The notes under the pieces were generated by a model. The model ran no database searches. It was not told the origin of the DNA and saw only the letters and a list, made by a program, of their open reading frames with translations. Made by a program: the position numbers and the translations under genes. A DNA stretch of 64,000 bases from Balanoglossus misakiensis (Eukaryota; Animalia; Hemichordata). Of the stretch, positions 10,353-62,913 are shown one piece after another (the stretch's first letter is position 1; each line of letters opens with the position of its first letter). Location: NCBI GenBank assembly GCA_040954595.2, contig CM082578.2, forward strand, positions 7,487,519 to 7,551,518, in the 5' to 3' direction.

Positions 10353-10431
10353 ATGGCGTTGGAGCGAATTGGCGGTTTGTTGTTGTTGCTGATCTTGGTG
10401 ATTCTCCAAAACCGACCAGTGAATTCCCAGC
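10353..10431 (+). CDS. Gene B exon 1, signal peptide
   Basis: MALERIGGLLLLLILVILQNRPVNSQ followed by the phase-1 donor C|GTAAGT, which joins TT at 13913 to give L-C-S-I-S-Y. Confidence 0.85.
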
Positions 10432-13400: not shown

Positions 13401-16400
13401 GGGGTTCGAAGTGGTATTTCCTTTGTCTCATCCAACGGCACGGTTCAGACTTTGAGATGATGGATATGTGTTACCACGTGCCAAACTACAGGCTATGAGA
13501 CATAGCACGGGCAATGAGATGTACTACCTCAGGTTAAAATAAAACAAACTACCATCATCTGATCAGCAAACATCCATGTGCAATGCTGTGTTTGATAATT
13601 ACAAATGCCGATTAAATCGCGTGGTTGCAAATGAACAAGAAATTGTTATGAAACTCGCCCAAAGCAACTCGTGTTCTACAACCATATCTCATGAAAAATA
13701 AGTGTTAGCAAGTTTCATAAAATTCATAGCAAAACTTCACCAATGTACGCATGTAATATCAGTTAATCAACATGACAGACTACCAAATGTCTCAAAGCAC
13801 ATTCAGATCTCTGGGAGATCAATATATGTACAACATGAATTCTGGATTAACGGTGCTGATTGCGCAAATTCGCATAATTTGCTTATCTTTTTTTGTATTC
13901 ACGTACATATAGTTTGTTCTATATCATACACCGGAAGTCCATACCACATCAACGAGAACAGCATCCTGGGTACCACAATCGTCGACACATCTGACTTCAC
14001 TGCTACGTTTCCCGAAGGCGCTGCAAGTCCGGCGTTTGAAATCACGTCGGCCACAACCCTGTTTGCAGTCGTCGGGTCAACAGGAGTGGTCAGTGTTTTA
14101 TTTTCCACTCTTTGCATAAAGCTACCAGATATTCGTGTGTATTTTGTTTACACTTGGTGATTAAGAGGGGCTAAGTGTAATGCATTGCTTTTGGCGCGTT
14201 CACCCTGCTCGCTTATCATGCAATATAAATGTCTACTACACCCTGGCTTCTCGATGAACTAGATAACTTGGCTAAACTCCAAAGAAACGTCGAGGGCGAT
14301 GCGCAACATAAAACATTCCGACACAGTGGCTGTTTGGCTGTCAAATGATTTCAAAGGTGTTCATCACAGAGCCCTGCTAAGTTATGTTTTAATTTATCAA
14401 TTAGAGTAGCATTTCTTATATTTGCTCTTGATGTTTTCAGATATATGTCGAATCCGCCTTGGACTACGAAACAGATGGCGGCGCTGGCATTTCCGTCGAT
14501 GTAGCGTGCCGACAGGTCACTAACAACGACTCTACTTCCTCAATAACCATCTTCATCGACGACGTAGTCGAACGTAAGTGCCAGACATTTGGAGCAGAAA
14601 CGAGTGCAGAATCAGAGGCAATCGGATCAGGGATACCGAAGCAGCGAAAGGAAAACAGTCGAGAATCATTTGAAAATGAGTTTTACTTTCATTATTGACA
14701 AACAAATTTATTCAAATTTACGATAAAATGTGTTGTTTTTGGTTTTGCCCGTTGTTAGAAACTTTGGTGCTAATGTCATGTTTGTATTTGTTATGTCCGG
14801 ACAGCCTGCTCTGTCAGCTGGACGGGGCAGCCATTTCCGGTGCAGGAGAACTCGGCGTCTTCCACTCCAATCATCACTACCGGTGACATCAATGGCAGTT
14901 TCCCGGAATCCAAGGCTGCAACTGCGTTCGCAATCACAAACGTTAGCCCGGGCCCGTCCGATCTATTCTCAATCGATGCAACTACAGGCGCCGTAAGTAC
15001 AGTGACCACCCTAATAAATTGATATAATTTGCAGCTAACATATGCCTAAATGCGCTCTTCAATCGGCTATGAAAGTATTGATGTTTTTAAGTTTATTTTC
15101 CCAAAATATGTTATAGATACGCTAAGAAATAATATTTATGCATTTTGTTTTAGATATCAGTCGGCAGCCAAATTCCTGACTACGAGGCGCATGGCGGTTC
15201 AAGTCAGACGATAACGGTGACATGTTACCAGGTGTCTGGAAATAGCCAAGCTCAAGATGTTGATGTCGATATTCAAAACGTTGATGAAGGTAACGTTAAA
15301 CGTCATGACTAAGCACAAAGATAGATAGATGTGTGTGTTACGTCCTCTCTGATGGGGTACTATACCTGTAGCGTAGGCCCTACGTTCATTCATTTTTGTG
15401 CAGCAGCTATTGATATCTGACTACTGTATACTCTTTCTCCCTTCAAACCATGTAGCCTGTTCCATCACGCTGACAAACCCCACTTACTCAGTGGTTGAGA
15501 ACACTGTTTCCGGTTCTACCATCATACCTCTGTCACACATCACAGAAAGTTTCCCGGAAGGGCCCGCAACTCCGAGTTTTGTGATTGCAAGTGTCACCCC
15601 AGGACCAACGACACTTTTCGCCGTCGACGATTCCACCGGTGTGGTAAGGTTACTCTATACGATTTGCTTCCTTTACATTATACTTTTTACCCGATTTTTC
15701 GTTTATCTCTAAGTCTAATAACGATCCCTATGTCAAATCAATTGGTTAATTAATTAATTAACAAACATATCTCATCCTTATATTGAAGCTTAACGTCGGC
15801 AGCACTGTACCAGACTTTGAGGGTCACACAACATCCCAGACTGTGGACATTCAGTGCAAGCAAGCATCGGGCGTTGATGCCTCTGTTTCTGTTACAGTAA
15901 CCATCACAGATGATCCTGAACGTAAGTCTGTAGAAACACGACGGTGCACGTATTTCCCCTTGCATTCAATCACCGTGATTGTATGTTTTTATCCAATATT
16001 TATTACTTTAAATCTTGGCTCAAATATGAACCGGTGTAACCTTTACATAGATTATGAGCCGACATATAAATTGCACACTCAACTCTTGAGATGATTTCAT
16101 AGTCAATCTGATGAAAATGTTGACCAACTTGAAATTGACAATTTCGGATACACCATATATAACTTTTTTCCAGCAAATGAAGTTAGTATTTTCTTCTCAA
16201 AAACACGGTATAGGCTAATATTATAACTGGAATATCTTGAATTTGTTTTCGAATCAGCGTGTACCATAGCCTACAGCGGAGGCCCGTACACTGTCACCGA
16301 AAACACGAACACAGGACAAATCGTCATTGACGCTGCCGACGTAGTCTCTCAGTTTTACGAAACCCGATCATCGCCAGCTTTCTCAATCTCGGCCGTCAGT

Positions 16401-19400
16401 CCAGGTGCAGCCACGTTGTTTGCAATAGACGGAACGACGGGAGCGGTAAGTCGTGTACAAGCACAAATCCGTTTCAGTTGACCTGATGCAGAATTGAACA
16501 AACTTATAGGTTGTACATGTAATATTCATGTACCTGAAATGCACGTCACGTGCAAGCAACTGGTATGCACGTTTGCGAGACGGTTGGGGATTGGTTGGTT
16601 GATGCGAGGGTCTCGGAACGTTGCTTATGATTGGTCTACACCTTTCATCGAGTAAATCTTGAATAACAAGTGCGTTCGCGTGAATGCAGTACCTTGCGAG
16701 AACAGACCTGGCTGGGAGCATAACATTAACAAAAGAGGCATATTTATATATAAAATAGCATACTCGTCAAACTTAGGGGAATTCTCAGGTTGCTTACGAA
16801 TCACACCTATAATCTTGCGAGACTTCAACGGTTCAGTCCAATTTTTAATGTTCAATAAAATTATTGAAACTTACTGTAATTTTCCACTTACCTAGATTCT
16901 GGTTGGTTCAACCTCGCCGGATTTTGAGACTGACGTAACCATTCAAACTATAACCGTGTCATGCCACCAGGACAGTGGGAGGGATAACACTTACGACGTC
17001 ACTGTTACAATTGTGAATGTCGTTGAGGGTAAGTTAACTATTCCATTCCCATGGAAATAAGAAAACGCCCTGGGTTTCATTTTAGCACATTCACTGTGAT
17101 TATACCTGCTGCAGTACAATCACAGTTTCATGTTGTATATGTACTATATTGCATGAATGAATGTTGACGTTTACTATACTGTAGTATTCATGCCGAAAAT
17201 TGTCCTACCCTCACCGAGACCGTTTCCATCAGAGAGAGCGAGTTGAAATACTCCCGTTCCCTATATAGCTGCGTGCTGTACACAATAGTTGTGATTGGGT
17301 ATTAGGAGGGAAACTTTAATGTAATGCATATAAAAAAAATAAAGGGGGGTTAAACATTTCAGGCCCTTAACGGTACTTGTTGTACATTTCCACCTAGATT
17401 GTTCACTAAATTGGCCGGCTCAACCGTTTGGTATCGACGAGAACACAGCAACGTCAACAGCCATCGTCAGCGCTGGGGATTTTTCAGAAACGTTCCCGGA
17501 GACAAAGGCCGCTGACCCGTATGACATCACTGCAGTCAGTCCGGGGCCTTCGACGCTGTTTTCAATCGATCGAGCGACTGGTGTGGTAAGTGTCCGCCAC
17601 TAATATCAGCATTACACATTAAAGAACTGGTCGGACCGCCGCGATTAAACCTTCCATTCGGGTTATCGTTCAATGCTTTGATTTTCATTATCCTTCCGAA
17701 TCGAAGATATAGGCTATATCTGTGATGTGATTAATCTGTTAATGCAAAGTGAACGTGACACGGTTGGGGTTGATATAGCTTGAAATATGCATTAACGTTT
17801 TTTTATGGACACTTTTTACGGTTGCAGATTTCGGTTGGTAGCGAAGTATCGAACTACGAGAGCCATGGTCCGAGTCAGACAATAACGGTGACGTGTTATC
17901 AGGCGTCAGGCTCCAGCCAAGATCAGGATGTTGTAGTCGATATAAACGACGTAGATGAAGGTAAAAATATTCATTCAACTGGGCGCTGGATTGGCGTTGA
18001 TCACCGAATCATAAATATCAGCATTTGAATAACGTGAAAAATATTAAAATCATCATTTAACTTTTAAATCATATATATATTTTCAGCATGCTCCATCACC
18101 TTGTCATCTGCGACTTACTCGGTAACCGAGAACACAGCTTCCGGTTCTGATATTATTCCTTTTGGAGACATCACAGAAGATTTCCCGGAGGGAGAAGCTA
18201 CCCCTAAATATGTAATTGCTTCAGTTACTCCGGGACCGCCGACGCTTTTTGACATCGACGCCACCAGCGGCGTGGTAAGCAACTTCTATCTCAGCTCTTA
18301 CCTGTATAAGTTCACGAGAAAATTTGACTCGACTTTCCTTCTCTAGTTATTTTATTTCTCCTCGGACAGCGTCTAATTACATCGGGCATTGTTTGAATTA
18401 CAGCTGAAGGTTGGGAGCACTGTTCCCGACTATGAGACTCACGCTGCAACTCAAACGGTCGAAATCGAGTGCAAGCAGACGACGTTCGTTGATGGCTCTA
18501 TATCTGTTCCTGTCACCATTGTAGACGACCCTGAACGTGAGTTACCAAGCACTTCCATTCCAAACCTAATTTGCCCCCCCCCCCACACCATTAACCAGTT
18601 AGATGTAAATGCGAAAAATGCGTGATAAACATGTAATACTATATTTTTGTATTTTCACAGCATGCAGTGTATCTTACAGCGGAGGCCCGTACACTGTCAC
18701 CGAAAACACGAACACGGGACAAATCGTCATTGACGCTGCCGACGTAGTCTCTCAGTTTTACGAAACCCGATCATCGCCGGCCTTTTCAATCTCTGCCGTC
18801 AGTCCAGGTGCGGCCACGCTCTTCGCAATAGACGGAACGACGGGAGCGGTAAGTTGTTTACAAGTACAAATTCTAGCGCCTTAGAATTGATCATTTACTT
18901 GACATATACTCGAAATGCACGTCACGTGCAACTGGTATGCACGTTTGCGAGACGGCCGGGGATTGGTCGGTTGGTGTGAGGGTCCATGCCTTTTGTCGAC
19001 TAAATCTTGAAGCAGGTGTACAACAAGTGCGCTCGCGTGAATGCAATACCCTACGAGAAAAGACCTTGCTAGGCGCATCACATAAACAAAAGAAGCATAT
19101 TCTCGCCGATTATTTAAAATTGATATATAAAATAGCATATTGGTCAAACTTAGGGGAAGTTTCAAGTTGCTGACGAATCACAGCTAATCTTGCGAGACTG
19201 CAACGGGTCAGTCCAATAAAATTATTGATTTTTACTGTAATTTTCCACTTACCTAGATTCTGGTTGGTTCAACCTCGCCGGATTTTGAGACTGACGTAAC
19301 CATTCAAACTATAACCGTGTCATGCCACCAGGACAGTGGAAGGGATAACACTTATGACGTCACTGTTACAATTGTGAATGTCGTTGAGGGTAAGTTAACC

Positions 19401-22400
19401 ATTCCATTCTCGTGGAAATTAGAAAACGCTCTGGGTTTCATTTTATCACATTCACTGTGATTATACCTGCTGCAATACAATCTCAGTTTCATGTTGTATA
19501 TGTACTATATTGCATGAATGAATGTTGACGTTTACTATACTGTAGTATTCATGCCGAAAATTGTCCTACCCTCACCGAGACCGTTTCCATCAGAGAGCGA
19601 GTTGAAATACTCCCGTTCCCTATATAGCTGCGTGCTGTACACAATAGTTGTGATTGGGTATTAGGAGGGAAACTTTAATGTTATGCATATAAAAAAATAA
19701 GGGGGGGGGGGTAAACATTTCAGGCCCTTAACGGTACTTGTTGTACATTTCCACCTAGATTGTTCACTAAATTGGCCGGCTCAACCGTTTGGTATCGACG
19801 AGAACACAGCGTCGCCAACAGTCATCGTCAGCGCCGGGGATTTTTCTGAATCTTTCCCGGAGACAAAGGCCGCTGTGCCGTATGACATCACCGCAGTCAG
19901 TCCGGGGCCTTCGACGCTGTTTTCAATCGATCGAGCGACTGGTGTGGTAAGTGTCCGCCACTAATATCAGCATTACACATTAAAGATCTGGTCGGACCGC
20001 CGCGATTAAACCTTCCATTCGGGTTGTCGTTCAATGCTTTGATTTTCATTATCCTTCCGAATCGAAGATATAGGCTATATCTGTGATGTGATTAATCTGT
20101 TAATGCAAAGTGAACGTGACACGGTTGGGGTTGATATAGCTTGAAATATGCATTAACGTTTTTTTTATGGACTTTTTCTTCGGTTGCAGATTTCGGTTGG
20201 TAGCGAAGTATCGAACTACGAGAGCCATGGTCCGAGTCAGACAATAACGGTGACGTGTTATCAGACGTCAGGCTCCAGCCAAGATCAGGATGTTGTAGTC
20301 GATATAAACGACGTAGATGAAGGTAAAAATATTCATTCAACTGGGCGCTGGATTGGCGTTGATCACCGAATCATAAATATCAGCATTTGAATAACGTGAA
20401 AAATATTAAAATCATCATTTAACTTTTAAATCATATATATATTTTCAGCATGCTCCATCACCTTGTCATACGCGACTTACTCGGTAACCGAGAACACAGC
20501 TTCCGGTTCTGATATTATTCCTTTTGGAGACATCACAGAAGATTTCCCGGAGGGAGAAGCTACCCCTAAATATGTAATTGCTTCAGTTACTCCCGGACCG
20601 ACGTCGCTTTTTGACATCGACGCCACCAACGGCGTGGTAAGCAACTTCTATCTCAGCTCTCACCTGTATAAGTTCACGAGAAAATTTGACCTTCTCTAGT
20701 TATTTAATTTCTCCTCGGACAGCGTCTAATTACATTGGGCATTGTTTTAATTACAGCTGAAGGTTGGGAGCACTGTTCCCGACTATGAGACTCACGCTGC
20801 AACTCAAACGGTCGAAATCGAGTGCAAGCAGACGACAATGGTTGATGGCTCTATATCTGTTCCTGTCACCATTATAGACGACCCTGAACGTGAGTTACCA
20901 AGCACTTCCATTCAAAACCTAATTTGCCCCCCCCCCCCACCATTAACCAGTGTAAATGCGAAAAACTGGTGCCACTGTCTCGTACTATATCCAACTATAT
21001 AGCACATGACTAGAAAACGTTCATAAACATGTATATGCTATATTTTTGTATTTTCACAGCATGCAGTGTATCTTACAGCGGAGGCCCGTACACTGTCACC
21101 GAAAACACGAACACAGGACAAATCGTCGTTGACGCTGCCGACGTAGTCTCTCAGTTTTACGAAACCCGATCATCGCCGGCTTTCTCAATCTCGGCCGTCA
21201 GTCCAGGTGCGGCCACGTTATTCGCAATAGACGGAACGACGGGAGCGGTAAGAGTGTTATCTGTTTGCTTTTGTCACTGTGTATAGAGATGCCTAATAAT
21301 ATGTTTCCTTTTGTTTCCCGTCGTTCACTATATTGTGATGCCTGCAGACTCTGCCGCCAGCAAAATAAAGCATGTTTTCATGTACGACCATATGTTTGTC
21401 TTAAGCACTGTCTTCCATGGTTGATGTACATGTCGTGTTCAAATTAGCCTTTTACCGTAGCAAATTCTCTGAGCATGTATATTTTCACGTATTTACTGGT
21501 ATTAACATGTATTTCATGTATGGCATTTTATAACTTTTTCGGATTATATATTGTTGTCTATCTGTGTCTTGTTCAGGTTATGGTTGGTTCAACTCCGCCT
21601 GACTTTGAGACCGATGCCACCATTCAAACGTTAACCGTGTCGTGTCATCAGGACAGCGGAAGAAACGGGTCTGACACTGTCACAATCACCATACAGAACG
21701 TCTTTGAGAGTACGTGTCGAAGTTAATTTTTGTTATGTGCACAAAACGCAATTTTGTTCTGTCATTCTTTGCAGTATGCATTTAACCATAGACAGTATAG
21801 AGCGAATTTATGATTTCATTATAAATTCCAACATACTGACAACCCTTGAATATTTTTCCAGATTGTTCACTGACATGGGCAGGGCAGCCGTTTGCCGTCG
21901 ACGAGAACACAGCGTCCTCGACTGTCATCGTCAGTGCAGCGGATTTTTCTGAATCTTTCCCAGAGACGAAGGCCGCTCAGCCGTATGACATCACAGCAGT
22001 TAGTCCCGGACCCACGAATTTATTCTCAATTGAAAGAACAAGTGGAGTGGTATGCTATGAATGGATTTTGTAGAAACATAGACGAGTTCTCGGTTTAGTT
22101 CACGCGCCAAAATGTCTTGATTCGTTCACGTTAAACGCCAATTTCCCAATTTGAAAGTAAGGGAACAGATACCATGCTAAGAAAAGTTAACTTTCAATGA
22201 ACAATTAAAAGACTTCACATGGAAATCCTACGTTTCTAATGAACGTGATGATGATCGTGGTGGTGGTGGTGGTGGTGGTGATGATGATGATGATGATGAT
22301 TTTGTTGTTTTACCTGTACGTTACAGATATCGATTGGCAGTGAAGTACCAGATTACGAGGCCCACGGTCCAAGTCAGACAGTTACAGTCACGTGTTACCA

Positions 22401-25400
22401 GGCGACCGGTAATAATCACGTTCAAGATGTTGTCATCAACATCGACGATTTAAACGAAGGTAGGATATAGTCAGGGCACGCTTGGTCAGAGCTACTACAG
22501 AAATATGACATATCTACCTGAACAATTCTCACGGTGAATCTTCAGTTTTGCACAGGCGACCAAACGTTCATCCAATATCAATTTTCAGATTTCTATCCGG
22601 CCTTATATTTCAGTGTGCTCTCTTACGCTGGCGTACACTGCTTACTCGGTGGCTGAGAACACGGCCCCCGGTTCCGTCATAATTCCCCTTGGTGACGTCA
22701 CCGGAATCTTCCCGGAAGGAGCTGCATCTCCCAAGTTCGTGATTGCGACAGTGACACCCGGACCGGCGTCGCTGTTCGATGTCGACGGCGCTACTGGAGT
22801 GGTCAGTTTTCATTTTTTTAAATATGGCAGAAACAAAATGTTATCAGCAAAACATCGGTAGCAAAATCTCACAATGCATCATGGAGACACGGTCTTTCAA
22901 CTTCATTGATGTATATATTTACGAAAACCGATTTCTATGTAAACTGTACTCGATCATTGACTTGGGTGTCCGACGCTCTGTTCGCTGTCTATTCAAGAGG
23001 GGGGGGGGGGGTCGATAGACCGTTTTTTAGTTCGACACCAACTTTGATATTGAAGATTGGATGACATGCATGAAAGTCGACCAATTTCTTGATTGTGATT
23101 ACATGTATCTGTTTGTGATAACTGGTGTTTTGTTTTGGTTCGCTTTGATTTTGGTGTGTTTGTGGCACAAACCCGGCAGTTGAAAGTGGGAAGCACGGTT
23201 CCTGACTTCGAAAACCACCCGGTGACTCAATCGGTTGAACTTCAATGCAAACAAACCACAAGCAATGATAACATCACCACGGTCACTATCAACATCAGTG
23301 ATGAGGCTGAACGTAAGTGGACTTGAATAAAAATAATTAATCAGAATATACATTTAGAGCAGTTTTCTTAACAAACCAGGTCGAGATCCTTGTAACTGTC
23401 TTTTGGTATGTGAACTCTTCAAATTTAACCTTTCATGATTCTATAAAAGCGTCCTGTTCCGAGCAACTGTTTTAAACTTATAACAACCCTTTTATCGCTA
23501 CAGCCTGCACTCTGTCGTGGTCTGGAGGACCTTACTCGGTCGCTGAAAACACGAACTCGGGCGACATCGTCATCGATTCGGCTGACCTCGTCACGCAGTT
23601 CCCCGAAGGCGAAGCAGCGACGGCTTTTTCGATCACCGTCAGTCCGGGTGCAGCGACACTCTTTGACGTCAACCCGTTGACGGGAGCAGTAAGTTAATAA
23701 TGAGATTGTCCTTGACCTTCACGGCTAGCTACCTTCTCTTCCATAGCACTTTGGTCTAGCCCTGTGTTTAAAGTGGCGTTGCTTGACTCATCATGTACAG
23801 ACAAGTGTGCATTGTCTAGGTTGATAGTTTATGTAATGCATAGCTATATTTTGGACTATAATGAATCACCTCACTCTGTACACACATAAACACCTTGCAT
23901 GATTACCTACACCTGCAGCTATTAGTTGGATCGACACCCCCTGATTATGAAAGTGACGGCACCACTCAAACGATCACAATGTCCTGTCATCAGAGCTCGG
24001 GAAGGAACGGTTCTAACGTGATAACAGTCACCATAATTGATGTCGCTGAAGGTATGGTTAAAATCATCTCTTAATATGTATTAAATTAGCATGCAGATGA
24101 TATTTTCCTATCGTGACAAGAAGTCATACCAACATTTATATTATGTTTCACTAAAATCATACCTGTAAATATTCGTATATGAACATTATTATTAATATCT
24201 GTTTTACTGCTATATTAAATATTATTAATGGCTGCGATAAAAAATCAGAAATGCGTTTCTCTGTTTCAATATCTATGCAGCATGTGGAATAACTTGGACT
24301 AATGCGCCTTATAGTGTGGACGAAAACTCAGGACCCAATACACCTATTATCGCTGCCGCTGATGTAAATGGTACTTTCCCAGAAACCCCAGCGAGTCCCA
24401 AATATGGCATCAATCGCGTCGACCCTGGTCCAGGTGACCTGTTTAACATAGTACCAAATGATGGATCAGTAAGTATACTTTGATAAGTTTAATGGTGACT
24501 TGCTCTGTCCATTTTTGGAAGCATGTGCGCGTTTCTCCTTATTTTTATATAAATAACTCGACTAAACAAATTCTTAAAATGTCACCAACATAATGTTCAC
24601 ATTATAATGTCATAATACTTATATCTCGCCGTCGCAGATAACTGTCGGTAGCATCATACCAGATTTCGAGACGCACAGTCCGATTCAGACGATATACGTT
24701 GACTGCTTCCAAAATCCAGGTCTCGACTCCACCTTTACCGTCGACGTCACCATAAACGACATTGACGAAGTCGCGGAGGTGCGGAATCTGCCCGCGTCTA
24801 TCCGAATATCGGAATCTACGGCAGCGTCAGTGTCCGTCTTCAAGGTTTCGTACTACGACCAGGAAGGCGGGTCTGTCACAGTCGCCATAGCCTCGCAGAG
24901 TCCGGGCCTTCCAGGACCCGTGTTCACTATAGGCAACGCGGATGAAGTTATGACTCCGGCGGGACTGGACTATGATCTGGGCAGCAGAGTTTTTACTCTA
25001 GATATAACGTGAGGTTTTAAATCTTGTTTAACATAAAATAATAAACCTTTTCCACCAATTCTCCTGCTGGTGTCATGGAACTCGCGAAGTTTATTACAAA
25101 ACCTTAACGACTTCTCTAACTTCACCTCCCCCGTATCACTCCTTCAGGGTCGACGATGGTACTACCACCAGTGTCCCGTCTACCCTCCAAATTGATCTCC
25201 TGAACGAGTTTGACGAGGCGCCATTATTCGACCAGACCTCATACAGTGGGACCGTGGACGACGGAGATGGGTACGGCACACCTATAACCTGGACTGGGGC
25301 TGGCGATCCAGTGCTCGATGTAACCGATGATGACGTGGACGATATCTTGCGATATTATCTGACTGGTAATTAGAAGTGGAATTTGCTTTCCCGTGCATGT

Positions 25401-28400
25401 TTCCTGTTTTTGAACCTCCTCCAGTTCGATATTATTGAGTCTGTCTCGGATGAAAATCTACCAATTTTGCCAAATGTAATTCAGGTCCCATGCACACAAA
25501 GTACACTGTTGCCAGATTGTTTTCCATACTCATGCTGGTGTATTTTAGTCCCACGCTCGTCGAGGTTGACATCGACATCACACCCATTCTATTTTAAATC
25601 AAAGACTGACCTGCACAAATGTCCAACTATATTTATGGCGGCCAGGAAGTCGGCTCATGGTACTTGCGTCTTGTTCACTGGTCACTTGGGGTGACACAGC
25701 ATTTTAATTGTCATCGCTGAGATGAAACTCATAAACAAACTTCGAAGTTGGCCCCATTTTTCTAACAAATTGACACATTTTGTATTAACCCGCACAGGTA
25801 CCAACGCAGATCATTTCAACTGTGATCAGATGACTGGTTCCATATCAACGGCAAGGTCGGTGGAAGCCGATGGCGCTGGAGCCGTTGGGACGTACTCGTT
25901 GACGCTAACCGTTGTCGACTTGGCTGGGAGTAGTGCAACGACTGACGTCACCATTACTGTGAATGATACAAATGATAACTATCCTTTATTCAGCCCGGCG
26001 TTCTACGTCAGCAGCGTCCCGGAGAACAGCGCGGCAGGTAAGGTTCAGAACACGAACAAATACATGAGAGGACAACAGCGCATTCATTTGGGATGGGCAC
26101 ATTTTGATTTTTTAAGATTTTTCAGGAGTTTATGAGTCTCTCTGGGGTTTTTTTCAGCAAAGTACTTCAGCTCTTTATCGATAGTAGAGGTATCACTCGC
26201 GGTCACTCCAATAGGTGCCAGTGATATACACATTGAATTACTGTTCTACCTAATACCCATTGCAGGTGTCACGGCCGCCAGTCTTACCGTTTCTGACCTG
26301 GACACGGGAGCATTCGGTACAGTCATCCTGTCGATTGCCAGCGGAGACGGGGGGAAGTTCGCGCTGCTCGGAAACGACTTGGTGACCACGGCCGATCCCC
26401 TGGACTACGAAGCAGCCGACACGTACAACGTAATCGCCGTGGCTACTGACGGCGGCGGGCTCATCAGTTCAGCAACCGTCACAATTTATGTGAGTTGAGG
26501 CAGAGACTTGTAAGCTAAACATCAGACCATTACCCGTTAAATGAAAAACTAGAAAACTGGTTCTTTATTTTGACTTTACTCGACAGGTAACACCTGAGAA
26601 CGAATTTGCTCCCACATTCGCTTCTTTCCCGACCACTGCCGTCACAATCCCTGAAGATTCCGGTGCTGGGTTCGAGGTAGTGGCCGCTGCAGATATTTCA
26701 GCCACTGACAGCGACGGCGGAGTCGATGGGGAGCTCACCTTCTCAATCGTCGCCGTCACCGGTGAGTAATCGGTCGAGATAATAAATAAAGGCGCACATA
26801 TTTTATTGTTTTATCTAATGGCAAATGGATTAAACTTGATAGATATTTCAATGGAAAACAAAGGTTTTCCGCCACATACTTAACTTCTAATGCAAACATG
26901 AATCAGGGATCATTAAAAATTGGCTCTTTAAGTTAGGAGCATCACCAACTTTAATTTCATCTCCGTTAAACATTTCCTAACTTCAACCATAGGGGGAGCT
27001 CTGGACCGGTTCCACATGGAGGCCACCAGCGGCAGGATCACGACAGTCGACACATTCGATTACGAGAGCGGAACGACAACTTACACAGTAACTTGCCAGG
27101 TTCAAGATGGCGGCTCACCAACTCCGAGCGGCACCACGACCACTCTGGTGGTGAATATCGGTGACGTCAACGACAACGCACCCGAGTTCGACAGCAACTC
27201 TTACTTCGTCCCCGTATCAGAAGGCAGCGCGGTCGACACGGTGGTGAAAACATTCACCGTCAACGACGACGATTCCGCGAACTTCAGTTATCAGTTCGTG
27301 TCCGGCAATGACCTCGGCAAGTTCAAAGTAGACGACGCGACGAACGAACTTCGAATCAACTCCGTGGTCGACCTGGACGCCGGCGACCCGCCGAGTTACA
27401 CGTTGGTTGTTCGCGTCAGTGATGGCGGGTCGCCGGACCTCAGTGGTACATCCACCGTCTACGTCACGGTGACGTCGACCAATGATCACGCACCAATATT
27501 CGGGAACACAACACCTGTTGCGATAACGGTAAGCCGTTTTCTAAGCACGCCGACGTCAGTAATATTATACATGTATAGGCGTGCATTGTTTATAATCTAT
27601 AGGATCCACGCCCCCCTATCCACGCCCCCTCTCAACCATCCTTTCCCTCGAGGAAGATGACTGTGAGTTGATTACACCGTTTATTTTCAGATCACCGAAT
27701 CTGATCCTATTGGTACCTCGGTTGCTGTAGTGAATGTTGCTGACGGCGATTATGGACCTGAGGGTGACGTGGTTCTCTCCCTCGAGAGTGAGTACCCGAA
27801 GCTTAGCGATCTAGCATGTTCGATAGATCTCCCATTTGTATCTGTATTTTCGTTGTTTCAATGTTATGTATTGCCAACTTTGTCTGCGTGTCTTCTCAGA
27901 TGGCGACACCTTCGACAATTTTCGACTGGATCCAACGAGCGGTCTAATCGAGATCAAGTTACCCGTGGACTTCGAAGACACCGGCACTCCGATTACACTG
28001 ACCGTCAAAGCCACGGATGGCGGGACACCGGCAAACACGGCGACGCAGGACATTTCCATCGCCGTTACCAATGAGAACGACAACATTCCTACCTGTAATC
28101 CCATGGTCTATGTGGAATCCATTCCGGAAACGTCGGTGGCCAACTCGAGTGTAAGTGAGCGATTCTACACTACTATACATGATCGTTCTGTCTGTCTACC
28201 TCTCTGTCTGTCACGATAAAAAATTTCACCACTTGTATTTAGGTTGTGCAACTTAATTGCGAAGATTTGGACGGAACCGGACTATCCTACCGGTTCAAGT
28301 CTGGCAACATTGGAAACAGTTTTGACGTTTACAGCAATGGATTTATCACAGTGGCGTTATCAGGTAAACCATTCATTGCCATGGCTTAGTTACAAGTCTG

Positions 28401-31400
28401 AGCGGATGACATGTGGTAGAGTACTGATATTGTCAACAGTCGCTTGTTTTTTGTTCTGCAATGAAAGGTCGTTATGTCATACTCTGGCGGTTTTTTGTGG
28501 GGGGGGGGGCTCAGCCAAAATATTAATAAAATCATAAATTTTGTCAACGTCTAATAACATGTTGTTGGACATTTCTATGAGCACGCAAGGTTGGCGCGAA
28601 CTAAAATGAAGATAAACTGCAACATCTACCCACAGAATTCTGATTCTTTGCAATTTCTATGCAATCGTAACCTGCAAGTGGGTCACATTTATTGCAGTTT
28701 TCATATACAATCAACCTGTTTTTATCATACCAGGTACCCCCCTTGATTACGAATCCGGGGTCATCCTTTATCAGATGGTTGTCGAAATCGATGACGGTGA
28801 TAATTTGCTAGACGTGGAAGTCACAGTGAATATCCAGGCTGAAAATGAATATCCTCCCGCCTTTTCTCCCGCTTCGTGGACGACAAACATCACGGAAGAA
28901 TTTCCAGTGGGTGACGTCATCATCTCTTTGTCGAATTCGGTAAACGATAGCGACACTGGGGGACACGGTGTTGTCGAGTATCTAATCAATTCAGGTAAAA
29001 AAATATCAAAACTCTAACACCATCTCTGTCTTTCTATCGATTCTTTATTATTTTATCTGCCTGTTTGTCTGACTGACTGACTGACCGTCTCTCCGTCTTT
29101 TTGTCTGCCAGTTTTATTCTTAATTCCGAGACTAAATTGTTCTTTCTGTTCCAGTGCTACCAAACAGCGGCGCATCATTATTTATGATCGACAAAAACTC
29201 AGGCGACATCTACCTCGTGCAAAGTTTAGACTATGAGGACCAGGCTTCTTACATTCTCACGGTACAGGCAAAAGATGGCGGCGGCCTAACCACGCCAGCT
29301 ACCATCACGTTGGCCGTGGATGACGTCAACGACAACAGCCCTACATGCCTTCAATCAAGATATGACCGCAACGTCAGTGAAAACACTTGTAAGTATGATA
29401 CCCATACGAATGGGAGTGGCTTATGATCACATTTACTGCAATAGGTTATACTGCAAATATGGCAACTCATCTTTTTTTTTCCAGATCCCTACATTGCCGT
29501 GAGTATGGCCGACTTGGGCTGCACTGATATCGATTCCGGTACATTTGGCACCTCTGGTCTGACTTTCACTCTTGTCAGTCAATCGCCATCATTTGACTTC
29601 GAAGTAACCGTGCAGGGCGTTTCTCTCGTAGGTAAGTTGTTAGTGCAGGTGACTGCACCGCAGATTTTCAAAATTCATCGCTAGAGTACTCGATGGACTG
29701 GTGATTGCGCTGGTGTCCTCTTCAGGGGTATACACGTGTGAGAAAAGCATCAAAATTGTGATATTTTAATTGTGTAATATTTGAAAATGAGTGTTTCTCA
29801 TTTTTCAGCTAATACTCTGGACTTTGAAAGCGCGGACAGAGAGTACGATCTCGTCTTACGCGTGTCGGATGCCGGGTCACCACCGCTGTCAGTCGACGTC
29901 ACGATTACAGTAACTGTTGATCCCGTCGACGAGGGGCCACCCGCGTTTCCGGGGCCTTACTCCGCCGCTGTGAGTGAAAGCGTCCCCATAGGCACCAGTG
30001 TTGAAACGTGCGTCGCCAACGACCCCGACTCCGACGACACGGCCGATGGTCAGGTGACCTACTCGGTCACCAGCGGGGACCCCGGCGGTTTCTTCAGGAT
30101 CCGGACTACAACCGGTGAAGTGACGACCGCGAAAAATCTCGACGCAGAAACGACGGCGCGCTTTGACCTGGAAATCACGGCCGTCGATGGAAACGGAGGC
30201 TCTGACGTCGTTACTCTGACCGTCACTGTATCCGACGATAACGATAATACCCCGACTTGCGCGAATTCCACATTTGCCCAAAATGTGGACGAGAACACCT
30301 TGCCGCTTGTCGTTTATTCACTGGACTGCTCCGACAGCGACCAAGCCGACTCCTCCCTGAACTACGCCCTCACCTCGGGAGACACTACCAAGTTCGGCGT
30401 CAACGCGAACGGCGAGGTCTATCTGCAGTCAGCGCTGGACTATGACGCCGCTGGCGTCCCAAGGAATTATTCACTAGAAGTGACAGTTGAAGATTCTGCG
30501 TCTAATACCTTCGTCGTTCAAGGAACAGTTCACGTGCAGCCGGTCAATGAAGACGTACCATCCTTCGTTCCGTCGAGTAAGAAAACTTTTGTTTTGAAGC
30601 AAAAGTGCTTACTATGTATTTGGATGTCTGCGTTTGGTGATGTCAACTGAATAGTATTTTTTGTGTACGACAGAGAGTGCTACTTTGAATGAATGTGTAA
30701 ATCGTGCTTTCGATTCCAATTTTTCGTGTGACTTTTTCACCCGTATTGCGCAAACGGCGTATACATTTTGATCAGGCATGGTTGGTTCGACACCCGAAGA
30801 CAAAGCCTATAAAATCAGTGTTTTTAACATTCTGTGTGACAGACGATAATGACTTTTTGTATTAAAAAGATGTACGTGTATCAGCATATTCAATTTATTT
30901 CCACAGGCGTGTATTCGGTCAGCATCCCGGAAAACATAACTGCCGGGACTCTGGTGATCACCGTTTCAGCAGAAGATTCAGATTCTGCGGACACGCCCGA
31001 TGGTGTGGTCGAGTACGCGTTGGATTCGTCCTGCAACTGCCCGGAATTCCACCTCGATACATTCTCCGGCAAGGTCACCACTCTGCTGCCGTTCGACTTC
31101 GAGACGGAATCGTCGTACACGCTGGACATCCAAGCGTCGGACGCCGATAACATGGTCACCGGCGCCATCCTCGTCACCGTTACAGACGTCAACGACAACC
31201 CTCCGGTCTTCAGTTCGTACGTTTACAAGTACGTGGCTTATATTTTCAGTTTCCGCTGATTGGTTATTTTTCTGTCCGTGTCCATAACTTTCTTCAGATA
31301 TATCATATATCATTCAAGTCCCATTAACACCCGAAACAAGTGGCGTGTTTAAGAGAATCGGGGGAGGGGGTGGAAGTGTTTGTTCGGGTTTGCCATTCCC

Positions 31401-34400
31401 GGCCAAAAATGAAAATCGCTTCCTGCAAGGTTCTCTAAACTCGTTGTAACCATACTTATTTCAGTGGCTCGGTCGAAGAGGGTGTGGCTGCGGGACAGCT
31501 GATCACGACTGTAACTGTGATGGACCAAGATTCGGCAACTGACGACAATAATGTCATTGTTCTTTCCATAACAGGTGAGGTACAATTTCACAGTATTGTA
31601 TAGGACATGTATTGAGTTGCGCTTTGAAGATAAGTAGCCGAACATCCCCGATTTATAATAAGTCATCAAAGGTTGTCGGTTTTGGACTAAATAGTTTTGG
31701 ACTACATATATCTTAGATACACTCAGCATACATACACATGTACGTGAAAATTGTGATTTCATCTTTTTGGGATTGTATGTCTCAAGAAAATCATCGTTGA
31801 AGTGGCACATTTCAGCACTTGGTGATCTTGAATTTGTTTGCTTTTGTCTTGGCTTGGTTCTCGCCTTGAAAATCGATTAAAATGTGCCCAAACTTCATAT
31901 TTCGTAACATTTTTTTTTCCTTTCTAAGGTGGCGATTTATCATCGGTATTTACCGTGGACTCGGCTTCTGGCTATGTCACCACGACAAGTCCCGTCGATT
32001 ATGAGACCACCCGGAATGCCACCTTAGAGATCACGGCATCTGACAGGAATGGAGCCCCCGACGGCAATAGTGCGAAAGCATACGTCATTGTGGAGGTCAG
32101 GCCAGTCAACGAGGCAGATCCCGTTTTCCAGTCGACACCATACGCAGTCAACGTCACTGAAAATACATCCCCCGGAACATCAGTTTTTCAGGTCTCAGCG
32201 ACGGATTCAGATTCCGACTCTCATCCCCATGGCCAGATCAAGTTCAGCATCACGGCGGGGAACGCAGATGGCCGATTCTCACTGGACGAGCAGACCGGCG
32301 AGGTTTTCGTCGCTGGAATTCTGGACCGTGAAACGACCGATACGTACACACTCACAATCGAGGCGGCGGACAGCACGGTTGCGCTTGGTGACAGTCGCAC
32401 AGCAACTGAGAACCTGGTTGTCACCGTTGAGGACACGAACGACCACGCCCCGGTTTGCCTTTCGCAGCCGTATTTTGCCCCGGTGTCAGAGGCCGTTGCC
32501 GTCGGAACGACAGTGATGACGCTAACAGTTGCAGACGACGACGCGGGTATCAATGCTGAATTTTATTTCACCAAAGGAAGCGGGGATCCCGATGATGATT
32601 TCATAGTCGTTGATGACAAAGTTGTCGTCGCACAACAGTTGGCGTATGAAATCACGCCATCTTACGCGATTAATGTGGTTGTCGCGGATCTCGGTTCGCC
32701 GTCTTTATCGACGGAGTGTCCAGTTTATATCGCCCTGTTGCCTGAAAACACTCACCCGCCGGCGTTTCCGATTTCGGCGGATGTCGTGTCGCTGTTCGAA
32801 TCGACAACCGTCGGGACTCTCGTCTACACCGCCGCAGCAACTGACGCCGACGGCGTGGGTGAACATGGCGACGTCTCGTACAGCATCGCGAGCGGCAACG
32901 ACTTGGGCAATTTCTTAATCGACGCGCACACCGGCAAAGTCTTCATCGGTAAACTCTTGGATGCAGAGACAGTCGACACGTTCTCGTTGCAGATAATGGC
33001 CGCTGACGGAAACCTCACCTCGCAGACAACGTTGAACGACACGATGATGTTGGGGGTCGTCGTGTTGGACGTGAACGATAACAACCCGGTCTTTACGCAG
33101 CCGGTGTACGAGGCCACCATACCGGAAGACTTCCCCGCCTACGACACCGTTGTACGAGTAGAGGCGACGGACGCGGACACCGGCAGCAACGGGAACATAA
33201 CTTACAAAATCGCGGGGTTTTCTGGCGGTGGTGCCTTCGCCATCGACTCAGTAACGGGGGACATCACAACCACCGGCTACGTGGATCGCGAAGAGAGGAG
33301 TTTCTACCCCGTCGGCGTCGAAGCCTGGGACGACGGCACCCCGGCCCGATTTTCCACGGCAGTCGTGAAGATAACCGTAGAGGATATAAACGACAACTTC
33401 CCCGCAGTGTCACCACAGAATCTGACCGTCGGCATACCCGAAGACTCGGTCGCCGATTACATGGTGGCGCATCTGTCGGCCACGGATCGCGATATCGGAG
33501 AAAACGGCAACGTCTCCTTTTCGATAGCCGGTGGAGACCCGCTGGGACAGTTTTACGTCGATTCCACGCTAGGGACGGTACACGTTTCAAATGTTGGACT
33601 CGACAGAGAAGTGCAAAGCGAGTAAGTAAGACTTTCCGAATCCTCTTCGGGTGTGGGCTCTTTACGTAGTTTGTTATCCCTAGCTTAACTCAAATCGCCT
33701 TTTCCCGAGTGTCAAAGCTTCCTTTTGCCCGTCTTCCCATTTCTCTCATTACTGAAATGATTACTTATTGACCTTCTCTTCTTTTTTTAAATTCCTATTT
33801 TGGTGGATTTTACAGATTCCTTCTGGTGATAAACGTGAGCGATCATGGGTCGCCCTCTCTGGCGACCACAACCTTCCTGACGGTGGTCCTATCCGACATC
33901 AACGACAACGCGCCGGTAATCGATCCGGGTTTCTACGCCGTTTCCGTAGACGAAGGCACCGTTATCGGAACAGTAGTCTGCACCGTCATGGCAACTGATC
34001 CTGATACAAACGATAATGGCAAACTGACATTTGGAATTACGTCAGGCAATGAACTCGGTAAGATAATTTTCGAAAAATAAAATGTGTTCGTTGTTGAATC
34101 ACCAGTCGCTGTGAATACTCCCCCCTGACTTCACATTAAATTTACCAGTTTCTTTTCTTGCATTTTTCATCATTTGTCACGATGATTATTAAATCTTCTC
34201 AAATTGGATTGACTTGCCAATTTTTTAAATGCGTTTGTTGTCTGTATTTTCGGTCGTTTACAGGTCAATTTGCAATCGATACAGGTTCTGGGGTTGTTAC
34301 AGTCGCGGGCGCTTTAGACATCCGTATAATGGAATTTTATAGTTTGGTCGTCGTTGTTCGAGACGGAGGTACACCATCACTGTCTTCAGCAACCACAGTC

Positions 34401-40859: not shown

Positions 40860-62913
<22,054 letters not shown>

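What the first reader, a model, noticed from the sequence alone, without database searches (positions are those of the whole stretch)
13913..24770. Ca2+-ligand motifs replaced by a conserved Cys pair in the expanded domains
Seen: all 14 modules keep the xEN and (D/N)(Y/F)E motifs. The canonical DxNDNxP linker becomes (D/N)xxE-x-C, the DxD loop becomes F(P/Y)E, and AxDxG becomes C-x-Q (CRQ, CYQ, CKQ, CHQ, CFQ). Gene C EC1 has the same pattern (VCYIDW...VACLQ). Known: DxNDN, DxD and AxD converge at the interdomain junction to bind Ca2+ sites 2 and 3. Inference: the two invariant cysteines lie at this same end of the domain and form a disulfide staple, giving junctions with reduced Ca2+ occupancy and different stiffness or bend.
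Basis: partly seen in the sequence, partly recalled or inferred. Interest (0 to 1): 0.75.

Follow-up and report, generated by a model that had tools for sequence, protein, structure and literature searches.

The report
Disulfide-clamped tandem cadherin tip domains
An acorn-worm-type giant cadherin gene carries 14 tandem copies of a tip-type cadherin domain, each with two invariant cysteines that likely form a strand A to strand F disulfide where the third calcium site would normally sit; this is a lineage-specific variant of a known cadherin feature, not a new kind of protein.

Summary
Window 13913-24770 (+) holds 14 two-exon modules that splice into 1493 residues without a stop. They contain exactly 28 Cys, two per module, always in the same two columns. 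xEN, (D/N)(Y/F)E, F(P/Y)E and C-x-Q are each 14 of 14; (D/N)xxE-x-C is 13 of 13 internal linkers.

The modules are true cadherin EC domains:
- Pfam PF00028 scores above its cut-off.
- An AlphaFold2 model of the Ptychodera orthologue has pLDDT 90.2.
- Every listed structural neighbour is a cadherin EC fragment, Z up to 17.

Cys1 sits at the start of strand A and Cys2 near the end of strand F. A solved precedent is the A-F tip disulfide of PCDH15 and CDHR5 EC1. No coordinates were available, so SG-SG was not measured.

A tree and single-module paralogues indicate the array arose by amplifying an EC1-type tip domain. The top-side ligands were therefore probably never there, not replaced. Site 1 and 2 ligands are invariant in 39 modules and site-3-specific ones are gone, so I infer two Ca2+ per junction. 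Strong matches with a source name come only from enteropneusts. New variant of a known kind.

The parts
10353..10431 (+). Candidate exon 1 of gene B: ATG plus signal peptide (26 codons + 1 base, GTAAGT donor, phase 1), predicted to join the acceptor at 13913
   Evidence: Only candidate found in a scan of 4001-13912 for ATG + hydrophobic peptide + phase-1 GT donor; inferred, no RNA support
13913..14573 (+). Module 1 (exon A 13913-14088, exon B 14441-14573); Cys1 codon 13915, Cys2 codon 14507; NEN, FPE, DYE, CRQ, DVVE-P-C
14805..15289 (+). Module 2, type a (exons 14805-14992, 15154-15289); Cys codons 14807, 15223; CYQ
15456..15921 (+). Module 3, type b (exons 15456-15643, 15789-15921); Cys codons 15458, 15855; CKQ
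16258..17028 (+). Module 4, type c (exons 16258-16445, 16896-17028); Cys codons 16260, 16962; FYE, CHQ
17398..17960 (+). Module 5, type a (exons 17398-17585, 17828-17960); Cys codons 17400, 17894
18087..18536 (+). Module 6, type b (exons 18087-18274, 18404-18536); Cys codons 18089, 18470
   Evidence: acceptor 18404 chosen by eye to match the orthologue
18661..19389 (+). Module 7, type c (exons 18661-18848, 19257-19389); Cys codons 18663, 19323
19759..20322 (+). Module 8, type a (exons 19759-19946, 20190-20322); Cys codons 19761, 20256
20449..20889 (+). Module 9, type b (exons 20449-20636, 20757-20889); Cys codons 20451, 20823
   Evidence: acceptor 20757 chosen by eye
21060..21709 (+). Module 10, type c (exons 21060-21247, 21577-21709); Cys codons 21062, 21643
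21862..22459 (+). Module 11, type a (exons 21862-22049, 22327-22459); Cys codons 21864, 22393
22614..23312 (+). Module 12, type b (exons 22614-22801, 23180-23312); Cys codons 22616, 23246
23504..24051 (+). Module 13, type c (exons 23504-23688, 23919-24051); Cys codons 23506, 23985
24281..24770 (+). Module 14, 'last' type (exon A 24281-24468; exon B starts 24638 and runs on to about 25012 into the next, Cys-less EC repeat); Cys codons 24283, 24704; CFQ; linker DIDEVA without Cys
16272..21252 (+). Tandem duplication of a three-module unit: 16272-18853 and 18675-21252, 89.6% identical over 2658 alignment columns, introns included
   Evidence: in the paired exons 17 synonymous and 15 non-synonymous codon differences, exon identity 923 of 963
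24771..36673 (+). Rest of gene B: EC repeats, most with canonical motifs (12 DxNDNxP-like linkers between 25965 and 35052; 7 AxDxG strings) and the C-terminal part, collinear with P0030
   Evidence: P0030 has 20 Pfam Cadherin stretches; in its printed C-terminal sequence I read a hydrophobic membrane-span-like stretch and a short tail
44134..44809 (+). Gene C EC1, the single Cys-pair module of the neighbouring paralogue (exon A 44134-44321 with Cys1 codon 44136; exon B from 44669 with Cys2 codon 44732); FSE, CLQ; extra Cys in the following linker at 44807
   Evidence: candidate signal-peptide exon 40860-40926

Best explanation
The 14 two-exon modules are divergent cadherin EC domains, each with exactly two cysteines that likely form an intradomain disulfide between the start of strand A and the end of strand F, at the N-terminal end of the domain.

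Shown directly:
- The modules are the N-terminal array of a giant type I cadherin, with about 20 further EC repeats, most with canonical motifs, in the orthologue.
- Related arrays of variable length occur in Ptychodera, Saccoglossus and Glandiceps.
- Cys1 occupies the 'x' before Pro of the DxNDNxP linker. Cys2 occupies the Ala of the AxD (XDX) motif.

Inferred:
- The array arose by repeated tandem duplication of an EC1-type tip domain of the kind seen once in PCDH15 and CDHR5. Such a domain carries the A-F disulfide and needs no Ca2+ ligands on its top side.
- Each module-to-module junction likely keeps Ca2+ sites 1 and 2. Their ligands are retained: E of xEN, D/N and E of D(Y/F)E, D/N and E of the linker, and E of FPE.
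- Each junction likely lacks site 3. The first Asp of DxD is Phe, the Asp of AxD is Gln, and the first Asn of DxNDN is free to vary.
- Because Cys1 is the first residue of the module and Cys2 lies 80-85 residues later, the disulfide would enclose about 84 of 107 residues. Tension along the chain would pass from the linker through the S-S bond to strand G. Each module would then be clamped against unfolding, and its N-terminal strand would be held closed.
For: Anatomy: 14 modules, 1493 aa, no stop, and 28 of 28 Cys in two columns.

Family-wide conservation over 39 complete modules (14 from the window, 25 from P0001, P0030, P0031 and P0033), all:
- Invariant (39 of 39): C1, E14, E73, C85, Q87, E106.
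- D/N71 39 of 39; D/N103 38 of 39; N15, F32 and E34 each 37 of 39.
- Position 105 (the N102 equivalent) is variable: D10, V6, P6, N6, L5, A3, others 3.

Cadherin identity:
- Pfam PF00028 41.6 bits against a cut-off of 28.8, in 3 stretches, on the tri-module of P0001.
- Profile against PDB: cadherin-23 5un2, E 2.1e-08, with the motif-to-motif alignment.
- AlphaFold2 best model pLDDT 90.2, three beta-sandwich domains.
- Foldseek: every listed hit is a cadherin EC fragment, best 5un2 at E 7.8e-17.
- VIA-align Z 17.1 over 301 aligned residues.

Topology: Cys1 at model residues 12, 119 and 226 immediately precedes strands 13-16, 120-123 and 227-230. Cys2 at 96, 203 and 309 lies in strands 89-98, 196-205 and 302-311.

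Precedent:
- CDHR5 EC1 C5-C73 on strands A and F, 'similar to PCDH15', keeps the N-terminal strand closed (PMC8691648, passages).
- DXD and XDX at the top of the next repeat serve site 3, and two-Ca2+ linkers exist in PCDH15 (PMC7547225, passages).

EC1 origin:
- Gene C EC1 clusters with the 'last' modules (96/89). Types b and c are shared between Saccoglossus and the ptychoderid sequences (98/95 and 96/94).
- Single-EC1 paralogues P0095 and P0111 have the Cys pair right after their signal peptides.

Selection and distribution:
- Cys codons vary between TGT and TGC.
- Rough dN/dS of about 0.3 between the recent duplicates, my estimate from 17 synonymous and 15 non-synonymous codon differences.
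- Among 1.84 billion representatives, 33 proteins reached E 0.001 with the exon A profile. Every match that also scored 60 bits or more with the whole-module profile and carries a name is from an enteropneust; one 72-aa fragment has no name.
Against:
- The model is of the Ptychodera orthologue (P0001 residues 119-455), not the window's own spliced protein, and its alignment was shallow and partly stacked.
- Four of the five AlphaFold2 models were much less confident (73.7, 71.9, 69.3, 58.8), and pTM is 0.57, so interdomain geometry is unreliable.
- Residue-level equivalence of the two Cys with C5/C73 of CDHR5 or the PCDH15 pair was not shown. 6oae matched only at E 0.43 and its alignment was not printed. 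P0095 did not align EC1 to EC1 with them among the five alignments printed.
- E34 and the invariant Q87 could still ligate a third Ca2+.
- E34 and Q87 are also present in true EC1 domains (module 1, gene C). Their conservation is therefore not proof of a junction role.
- Canonical EC repeats of the same genes carry another Cys pair (DxNDNxP-x-C ... C-x-D-x-D) together with full Ca2+ motifs. A top-side staple therefore does not by itself imply Ca2+ loss.
- The copy number of the array is not spanned by any independent contig.
Confidence: 0.68

Rival explanations
1. The same intradomain disulfide forms, but the junctions still bind three Ca2+. The invariant Gln (for Asp of AxD), the Glu of FPE and backbone carbonyls would complete site 3, so the array behaves like an ordinary stiff cadherin rod with an added staple.
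For: Q87 is 39 of 39 and E34 is 37 of 39. Canonical repeats in the same genes combine a top-side Cys pair with complete Ca2+ motifs. The model superposes better on extended triples (5vvm_B: TMq 0.54, rmsd 6.0) than on 3ubf (0.31, 22.2) or 4xhz (0.33, 15.1). That the latter two are kinked at Ca2+-free linkers is my recollection.
Against: The D134 equivalent is Phe or Tyr in 39 of 39 modules and the N102 equivalent is unconstrained. Q87 and E34 are also kept in N-terminal EC1 domains that have no junction above them.
Confidence: 0.12
2. The disulfide forms and the junctions are essentially Ca2+-free hinges or hydrophobically packed joints, with the invariant Phe acting as a plug. This would give a flexible or bent N-terminal chain.
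For: Three of the five canonical motifs are altered. Ca2+-free and partial linkers are known in PCDH15 (PMC7547225, passages).
Against: All side-chain ligands of sites 1 and 2 are invariant or conservatively kept across 39 modules from three genera plus the window. That is hard to explain without ion binding. The AlphaFold2 model is extended, though this is weak evidence.
Confidence: 0.1
3. The cysteines do not pair within a module. They would form intermolecular cross-links (polymer or matrix formation), pair between neighbouring modules, or bind a metal.
For: No distance was measured. The proteins are extracellular with many repeats. One Saccoglossus fragment is auto-named mucin-like.
Against: Cys2 of module n and Cys1 of module n+1 lie at opposite ends of a cadherin domain by topology. 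The first Cys1 and the last Cys2 would then be left unpaired. Every complete module has both or neither. Single-module paralogues have exactly this pair.
Confidence: 0.05
4. The array is an assembly artefact or a decaying pseudogene region with no functional meaning.
For: The recent 2.6 kb duplication is not spanned by any independent contig, and the DNA runs are probably from the sample that was assembled.
Against: 28 exons have intact splice sites and no stop over 1493 codons. Orthologous arrays with 6 to 11 or more modules occur in three other species. The substitution pattern looks purifying. No joints or deletions appeared in the laid contigs.
Confidence: 0.03

Closest known systems
EC1 tip domains of protocadherin-15 and CDHR5 (Cr-3 cadherins) with a strand A - strand F disulfide (CDHR5 C5-C73; PDB 6OAE is listed as mucin-like protocadherin, which I take to be CDHR5)
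   Same: Two Cys, one at the very start of strand A and one on strand F, at the membrane-distal end of a cadherin repeat. In module 1 and in gene C EC1 the first Cys lies within a few residues of the predicted mature N-terminus. The published role is to keep the N-terminal strand tucked in (PMC8691648, passages).
   Different: There the domain occurs once, at the tip. Here it is repeated 14 times, with 13 copies internal, so the Cys sits inside a remodelled interdomain linker, (D/N)xxE-x-C. Sequence kinship with PCDH15 or CDHR5 EC1 was not demonstrated, so convergence is possible.
Non-canonical, partially Ca2+-occupied cadherin linkers (PCDH15 EC2-3 and EC3-4 with two bound Ca2+; Ca2+-free EC5-6)
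   Same: The canonical XEX-DXD-D(R/Y)(D/E)-XDX-DXNDN set is incomplete, which predicts fewer than three ions (PMC7547225, passages).
   Different: In those linkers single junctions are affected and no disulfide takes part. Here the same altered junction recurs 13 times in a row. The missing ligands are those of the top side (site 3), next to a Cys pair. Occupancy here is inferred, not measured.
Cadherin-23 and other giant multi-EC cadherins (NCBI auto-names of the relatives: cadherin-23-like, protocadherin Fat 4-like)
   Same: Best sequence-profile and structural matches are cadherin-23 EC19-21. The orthologue P0030 has 20 Pfam cadherin stretches plus 6 modules, a hydrophobic membrane-span-like stretch that I read in its printed sequence, and a short tail.
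   Different: No EGF or laminin G domains were found, so it is not a true Fat. As I recall, cadherin-23 EC1 uses an extra Ca2+ site 0 and not a disulfide; PMC8691648 describes this in the passages read. No Cys-pair array is known to me in cadherin-23.
PCDH24 (CDHR2) EC2 F-G hairpin disulfide C187-C201
   Same: Another solved example of a disulfide inside a non-classical EC repeat near a linker (PMC8691648, passages).
   Different: It joins strands F and G of an extended hairpin and coexists with a canonical three-Ca2+ linker.

Membership tests
Cadherin EC repeat (Pfam PF00028) | Match to the family HMM above the curated cut-off | tested here: met
   The tri-module of orthologue P0001 scores 41.6 bits against a cut-off of 28.8, in 3 stretches. 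Single exons of the window alone gave no hit at E 1.
Cadherin EC repeat (Pfam PF00028) | Seven-strand Greek-key beta sandwich, repeats joined head to tail | tested here: met
   AlphaFold2 model pLDDT 90.2. Foldseek and VIA-align neighbours listed are all cadherin EC fragments, Z 14.7-17.1 over 278-311 residues. The model is of the orthologue, not the window protein.
Canonical three-Ca2+ cadherin junction (XEX-DXD-D(R/Y)(D/E)-XDX-DXNDN) | XEX and D(R/Y)(D/E) on the lower side of repeat n | tested here: met
   xEN 14 of 14 and (D/N)(Y/F)E 14 of 14 in the window. E14 and E73 are 39 of 39 family-wide.
Canonical three-Ca2+ cadherin junction (XEX-DXD-D(R/Y)(D/E)-XDX-DXNDN) | DXNDN linker | tested here: not met
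   0 DxNDNxP-like strings in the module region against 12 downstream. The linker is (D/N)xxE-x-C; the D100 and D103 equivalents are kept and the N102 equivalent is variable.
Canonical three-Ca2+ cadherin junction (XEX-DXD-D(R/Y)(D/E)-XDX-DXNDN) | DXD and XDX on the upper side of repeat n+1 (site 3) | tested here: not met
   DXD is F(P/Y)E and XDX is C-x-Q in 14 of 14 modules. The correspondence comes from the alignment to cadherin-23.
Canonical three-Ca2+ cadherin junction (XEX-DXD-D(R/Y)(D/E)-XDX-DXNDN) | Three bound Ca2+ ions | not testable with these tools
   No ion modelling and no coordinates were available.
EC1 tip domain with A-F disulfide (PCDH15 / CDHR5 type) | One Cys on strand A and one on strand F of the same repeat | tested here: met
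   Positions relative to predicted strands in three modules. The definition of the feature comes from PMC8691648.
EC1 tip domain with A-F disulfide (PCDH15 / CDHR5 type) | The two sulfurs within bonding distance / the bond is formed | not testable with these tools
   Structure prediction returns no coordinates.
EC1 tip domain with A-F disulfide (PCDH15 / CDHR5 type) | N-terminal (tip) position in the protein | tested here: not met
   True for module 1, gene C EC1, P0095 and P0111. 13 of the 14 modules are internal.
EC1 tip domain with A-F disulfide (PCDH15 / CDHR5 type) | Sequence kinship with PCDH15 / CDHR5 EC1 | tested here: inconclusive
   6oae matched at E 0.43 and no alignment was shown. 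No vertebrate name appeared among the 10 hits of the exon A profile whose names were looked up. P0095 aligned to internal repeats of other cadherins in the five alignments printed.

The most novel reading that the evidence does not exclude
Enteropneusts have evolved a distinct class of internal cadherin repeat. The adhesive tip domain, disulfide included, has been copied up to 14 times in series. In every junction a covalent A-F staple and a Phe plug stand in for Ca2+ site 3. The result would be a force-shunted chain that resists unfolding and needs only two ions per joint. Because each unit is an EC1-type binding domain, it may also present many binding tips in a row, acting as a multivalent or length-adjustable adhesive filament whose length is tuned by unequal crossing-over of a three-module unit.
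Probability: 0.3. Interest if true: 0.65.

Novelty: new variant of a known kind. Interest (0 to 1): 0.45.

Why it matters
Cadherin mechanics are usually explained by three Ca2+ ions per junction, and the known exceptions are single odd linkers in tip-link proteins. Here the same altered junction, paired with a likely covalent clamp, recurs 13 times in one chain. It is conserved across three enteropneust families. That offers a natural test of how far a disulfide can substitute for an ion site. It also offers a test of how a clamp that encloses about 80% of a repeat changes elasticity and unfolding. Finally, it shows a route of cadherin evolution, serial amplification of the tip domain as a three-module cassette, that I did not find described in the three literature searches that bear on this. 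The effect on general biology is modest: the fold, the disulfide type and partial Ca2+ linkers all have precedents.

Tried and rejected
- Single exon translations against Pfam found nothing at E 1 for exon A or exon B alone. Whole modules are needed.
- phmmer of the tri-module against PDB sequences gave 0 hits at E 0.01. The profile search then worked.
- Coordinates of the model were looked for in the script box and none were found. SG-SG and interdomain angles could therefore not be measured.
The Ptychodera orthologue was used instead. MAFFT stacked the exon fragments on one module each and shifted the Saccoglossus row by one module.
- Bacterial origin of the modules was rejected. The best non-hemichordate hits are bacterial cadherin-repeat giants, but they score only 15-32 bits per domain and have 0-10 Cys in total, against 100-149 bits for complete hemichordate modules. 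The exon A profile gives them 13 bits or less.
- Pairing between modules (Cys2 of n with Cys1 of n+1, spacing 22-23 residues) was considered and rejected on topology and on counting.
- RNA support: no RNA holder was listed.
- DNA contigs of two runs from one sample cover all 30 bins (X1) or 28 of 30 (X2). They show no joints, and no listed piece spans a repeat unit.
- Supplement S3 of PMC8691648 holds only the legend as text. The CDHR5/PCDH15 EC1 alignment is a picture and could not be read, so the exact column of their Cys remains unchecked.
- P0095 against PDB, tried in order to see an EC1-to-EC1 alignment with PCDH15 or CDHR5, gave internal-repeat alignments only among the five printed.
- The ESM Atlas look-up of one module returned only generic cadherin clusters.
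- Earlier notes of this scan: none for this genome.
- Literature searches for a cadherin disulfide with a Ca2+-free linker, for Saccoglossus cadherin repeats with cysteine, and for non-canonical linkers found no description of this array. Only listings and abstracts were seen, apart from the two papers cited. Subscription papers are not covered.

Full report
WHAT IS THERE

The window is animal DNA with short exons. Between 13913 and 24770 on the + strand there are 14 pairs of exons.
- Exon A is 176-188 bases and exon B is 133-136 bases.
- Every exon A follows an AG and begins with two bases that complete a split codon (phase 1).
- Every exon A ends before a GT donor in phase 0, and every exon B again ends in phase 1.
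- I moved two exon B acceptors (18404, 20757) by eye to the upstream AG so that they match the orthologue.

Joined in a script, the 28 exons give 1493 residues with no stop codon. They hold exactly 28 cysteines: the first residue of each module and a second one 80-85 residues later.

The only good candidate for a signal-peptide exon lies at 10353-10431. Module 1 would therefore start within a few residues of the mature N-terminus.

The last module runs, in the same exon, into a Cys-less EC repeat that lacks the module motifs. The gene then continues to about 36673 with 12 DxNDNxP-like linkers.

From the alignment:
- xEN: 14 of 14.
- (D/N)(Y/F)E: 14 of 14.
- F(P/Y)E: 14 of 14.
- (D/N)xxE-x-C: 13 of 13 internal linkers.

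Gene C, a paralogue at about 40860-59459, has one such module as its EC1.

WHAT THE MODULES ARE

Single exons do not reach Pfam. A word search with one exon found a Ptychodera flava protein, P0001. Further searches found P0030 (P. flava), P0031 and P0033 (Saccoglossus) and P0035 (Glandiceps). The window is 60-83% identical to the P. flava proteins over collinear exons, so it comes from another enteropneust or from a diverged paralogue.

Evidence that the modules are cadherin EC repeats:
- A three-module stretch of P0001 matches Pfam Cadherin at 41.6 bits (cut-off 28.8) in three stretches.
- A profile of that stretch finds cadherin-23 EC19-21 in the PDB at E 2.1e-08.
- The printed alignment puts C-K-Q on A-E-D (the AxD motif), D-D-P-E-P-C-S on D-D-N-D-N-W-P, and F-D-E on D-E-D (the DxD loop).

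Cys1 is the 'x' before the Pro of DxNDNxP, and Cys2 is the Ala of AxD.

STRUCTURE

The window's own spliced sequence cannot be handed to the folding tool. I therefore folded P0001 residues 119-455, aligned with one stretch each of P0030 and P0031 and with 28 window exon translations (the alignment is shallow and partly stacked).
- The best model has mean pLDDT 90.2 and pTM 0.57. The other four models are at 73.7, 71.9, 69.3 and 58.8.
- It shows three beta-sandwich domains.
- Every listed Foldseek hit is a cadherin EC fragment, best E 7.8e-17.
- VIA-align gives Z 17.1 over 301 residues for cadherin-23 EC19-21, and 15.4 for PCDH15 EC1-3.
- In all three modules Cys1 directly precedes strand A, and Cys2 is the third- or second-last residue of strand F.

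By cadherin topology the start of A and the end of F are both at the N-terminal end of the repeat. Cys2 of one module and Cys1 of the next are at opposite ends, so pairing must be within a module. The count agrees: the first Cys1 and the last Cys2 would otherwise be left over.

No coordinates are returned, so the SG-SG distance was not measured. This remains the main gap.

PRECEDENT

Gray et al. 2021 (PMC8691648; passages read) describe a disulfide between C5 on strand A and C73 on strand F in the solved CDHR5 EC1. [quoted passage not shown]

Choudhary et al. 2020 (PMC7547225; passages read) give the canonical motif set XEX-DXD-D(R/Y)(D/E)-XDX-DXNDN. They state that DXD and XDX at the top of the next repeat serve site 3, and they describe PCDH15 linkers with only two bound Ca2+.

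An A-F staple at this end of a cadherin repeat is therefore structurally proven elsewhere, and partial Ca2+ junctions are known.

HISTORY OF THE ARRAY

An exon A profile separates these modules sharply from generic cadherin repeats.
- Run over 1.84 billion representative proteins, it found 33 proteins at E 0.001 or better.
- I looked up names for 10 of the 33.
- Hits that also score 60 bits or more with the whole-module profile are from Ptychodera, Saccoglossus or Glandiceps, plus one unnamed 72-residue fragment. The remaining hits score 43 bits or less per domain and lack the Cys pair.

Module counts differ between proteins:

| Protein | Modules |
|---|---|
| Window gene B | 14 |
| P0001 | 8 |
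| P0030 | 6 |
| P0031 | 9 |
| Saccoglossus fragment P0116 | at least 11 |

Two short proteins, P0095 and P0111, and gene C carry the pair only in a true EC1 right after the signal peptide.

In a maximum-likelihood tree of 41 modules:
- Gene C EC1 groups with the 'last' module of the arrays (support 96/89).
- Module types b and c each unite Saccoglossus with the ptychoderid sequences (98/95 and 96/94).
- The midpoint root is for drawing only.

Within the window a 2.6 kb unit of three modules was duplicated recently. The copies are 89.6% identical including introns. The paired exons are 923 of 963 identical, with 17 synonymous and 15 non-synonymous codon changes.

I read this as an EC1-type tip domain, disulfide included, amplified N-terminally as a three-module cassette before the enteropneust families split, and again later. 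On that reading the missing top-side ligands were inherited from a domain that never needed them. They were not replaced one by one.

CALCIUM

Over 39 complete modules (14 from the window and 25 from relatives):

| Position | Canonical equivalent | Conservation |
|---|---|---|
| E of xEN | E11 | 39/39 |
| D/N of D(Y/F)E | D67 | 39/39 |
| E of D(Y/F)E | E69 | 39/39 |
| First linker acid (D/N) | D100 | 38/39 |
| Linker Glu | D103 | 39/39 |
| Glu of FPE | D136 | 37/39 |
| Phe/Tyr of FPE | D134 | 39/39 (non-acidic) |
| Gln of C-x-Q | D195 | 39/39 |
| Third linker position | N102 | variable (D10, V6, P6, N6, L5, A3, others 3) |

The residue numbering and the assignment of ligands to sites are recalled from classical cadherin structures, supported in outline.

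The side chains that build sites 1 and 2 are under strong constraint, and those specific to site 3 are gone or free to vary. I therefore infer two Ca2+ per junction. This is not tested.

Two cautions apply:
- E34 and Q87 are also present in the true EC1 domains (module 1 and gene C).
- Canonical repeats of the same genes carry a different Cys pair (DxNDNxP-x-C ... C-x-D-x-D, for example 30234-30341 and 53374-53481) together with complete Ca2+ motifs.

MECHANICS (INFERRED)

If the bond forms, about 84 of 107 residues of each module lie inside the disulfide loop. Only strand G and the linker lie outside it. Tension along the chain would bypass most of the fold. Each module could then extend only by roughly the 22-23 outer residues unless the bond is reduced.

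The model superposes better on extended cadherin triples (5vvm_B: TMq 0.54, rmsd 6.0) than on 3ubf (0.31, 22.2) or 4xhz (0.33, 15.1). This hints at an extended chain. It is weak evidence because pTM is 0.57, and the bent nature of those two entries is recalled.

LIMITS
- No RNA run was listed.
- DNA contigs from one sample cover the region without joints, but none spans a repeat unit.
- Residue-level equivalence with the CDHR5/PCDH15 cysteines could not be checked.

VERDICT

- The disulfide is very likely, but it was not measured.
- The Ca2+ loss is probably confined to site 3.
- 'Replacement' is better described as amplification of a tip-type domain.

This is a new variant of known things (cadherin EC repeats, the A-F tip disulfide, partial Ca2+ linkers). 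Among the named matches it is confined to enteropneusts.

Noticed in passing
window 30234-30341 (gene B) and 53374-53481 (gene C); linker-plus-Cys also at 29322, 32432, 49347, 50811, 55755; P0030 residues 1303/1327, 1513/1539, 1726/1749: Canonical EC repeats of the same genes carry a second kind of Cys pair. One Cys lies two residues after the Pro of DxNDNxP, and one lies just before the DxD loop (C-x-D-x-D), 22-26 residues apart. This is presumably a strand A to strand B staple that coexists with complete Ca2+ motifs. Similar spacings occur in a Lymnaea cadherin (P0063).
   Followed up: partly
window 40860-59459 (+): Gene C is a tandem paralogue of gene B with a single Cys-pair EC1. It has a candidate signal-peptide exon at 40860-40926 and repeats collinear with P0030. 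Its EC1-EC2 linker holds an extra, apparently unpartnered Cys at 44807-44809.
   Followed up: partly
window 1113-3669 (-): A third cadherin gene fragment lies on the minus strand. Its tblastn matches to the canonical EC repeats of P0001 and P0030 are 29-43% identical.
   Followed up: no
window 16272-21252: A 2.4 kb-period tandem duplication of a three-module cassette is 89.6% identical with introns included. Intron length differences (450 against 408, 124 against 170 bases) account for much of the divergence.
   Followed up: yes
P0116, P0095, P0111, P0001, P0030 (relatives): The automatic names of the relatives are misleading. 'Mucin-22-like' (Saccoglossus) is a run of at least 11 Cys-pair cadherin modules. 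'Desmocollin-2-like' and 'CELSR2-like' are short models with one Cys-pair EC1. 'Fat 4-like' proteins have no EGF or laminin G domains in Pfam. P0001 module 7 lacks part of exon A, probably a gene-model error.
   Followed up: partly
window 13500-25200: Contigs of the two DNA runs differ from the window at many single positions and at a few small indels (for example 6 bases put in behind 15093). This is consistent with heterozygosity or a second haplotype. One short stretch (22243-22313) was skipped as a repeat.
   Followed up: no
P0070 and P0083 (Glandiceps): Another Fat4-like paralogue keeps a Cys at the start of EC1, but its nearest second Cys is about 35 residues later (27/62 and 25/59). This suggests that the N-terminal Cys can pair with different partners in different subfamilies.
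   Followed up: no
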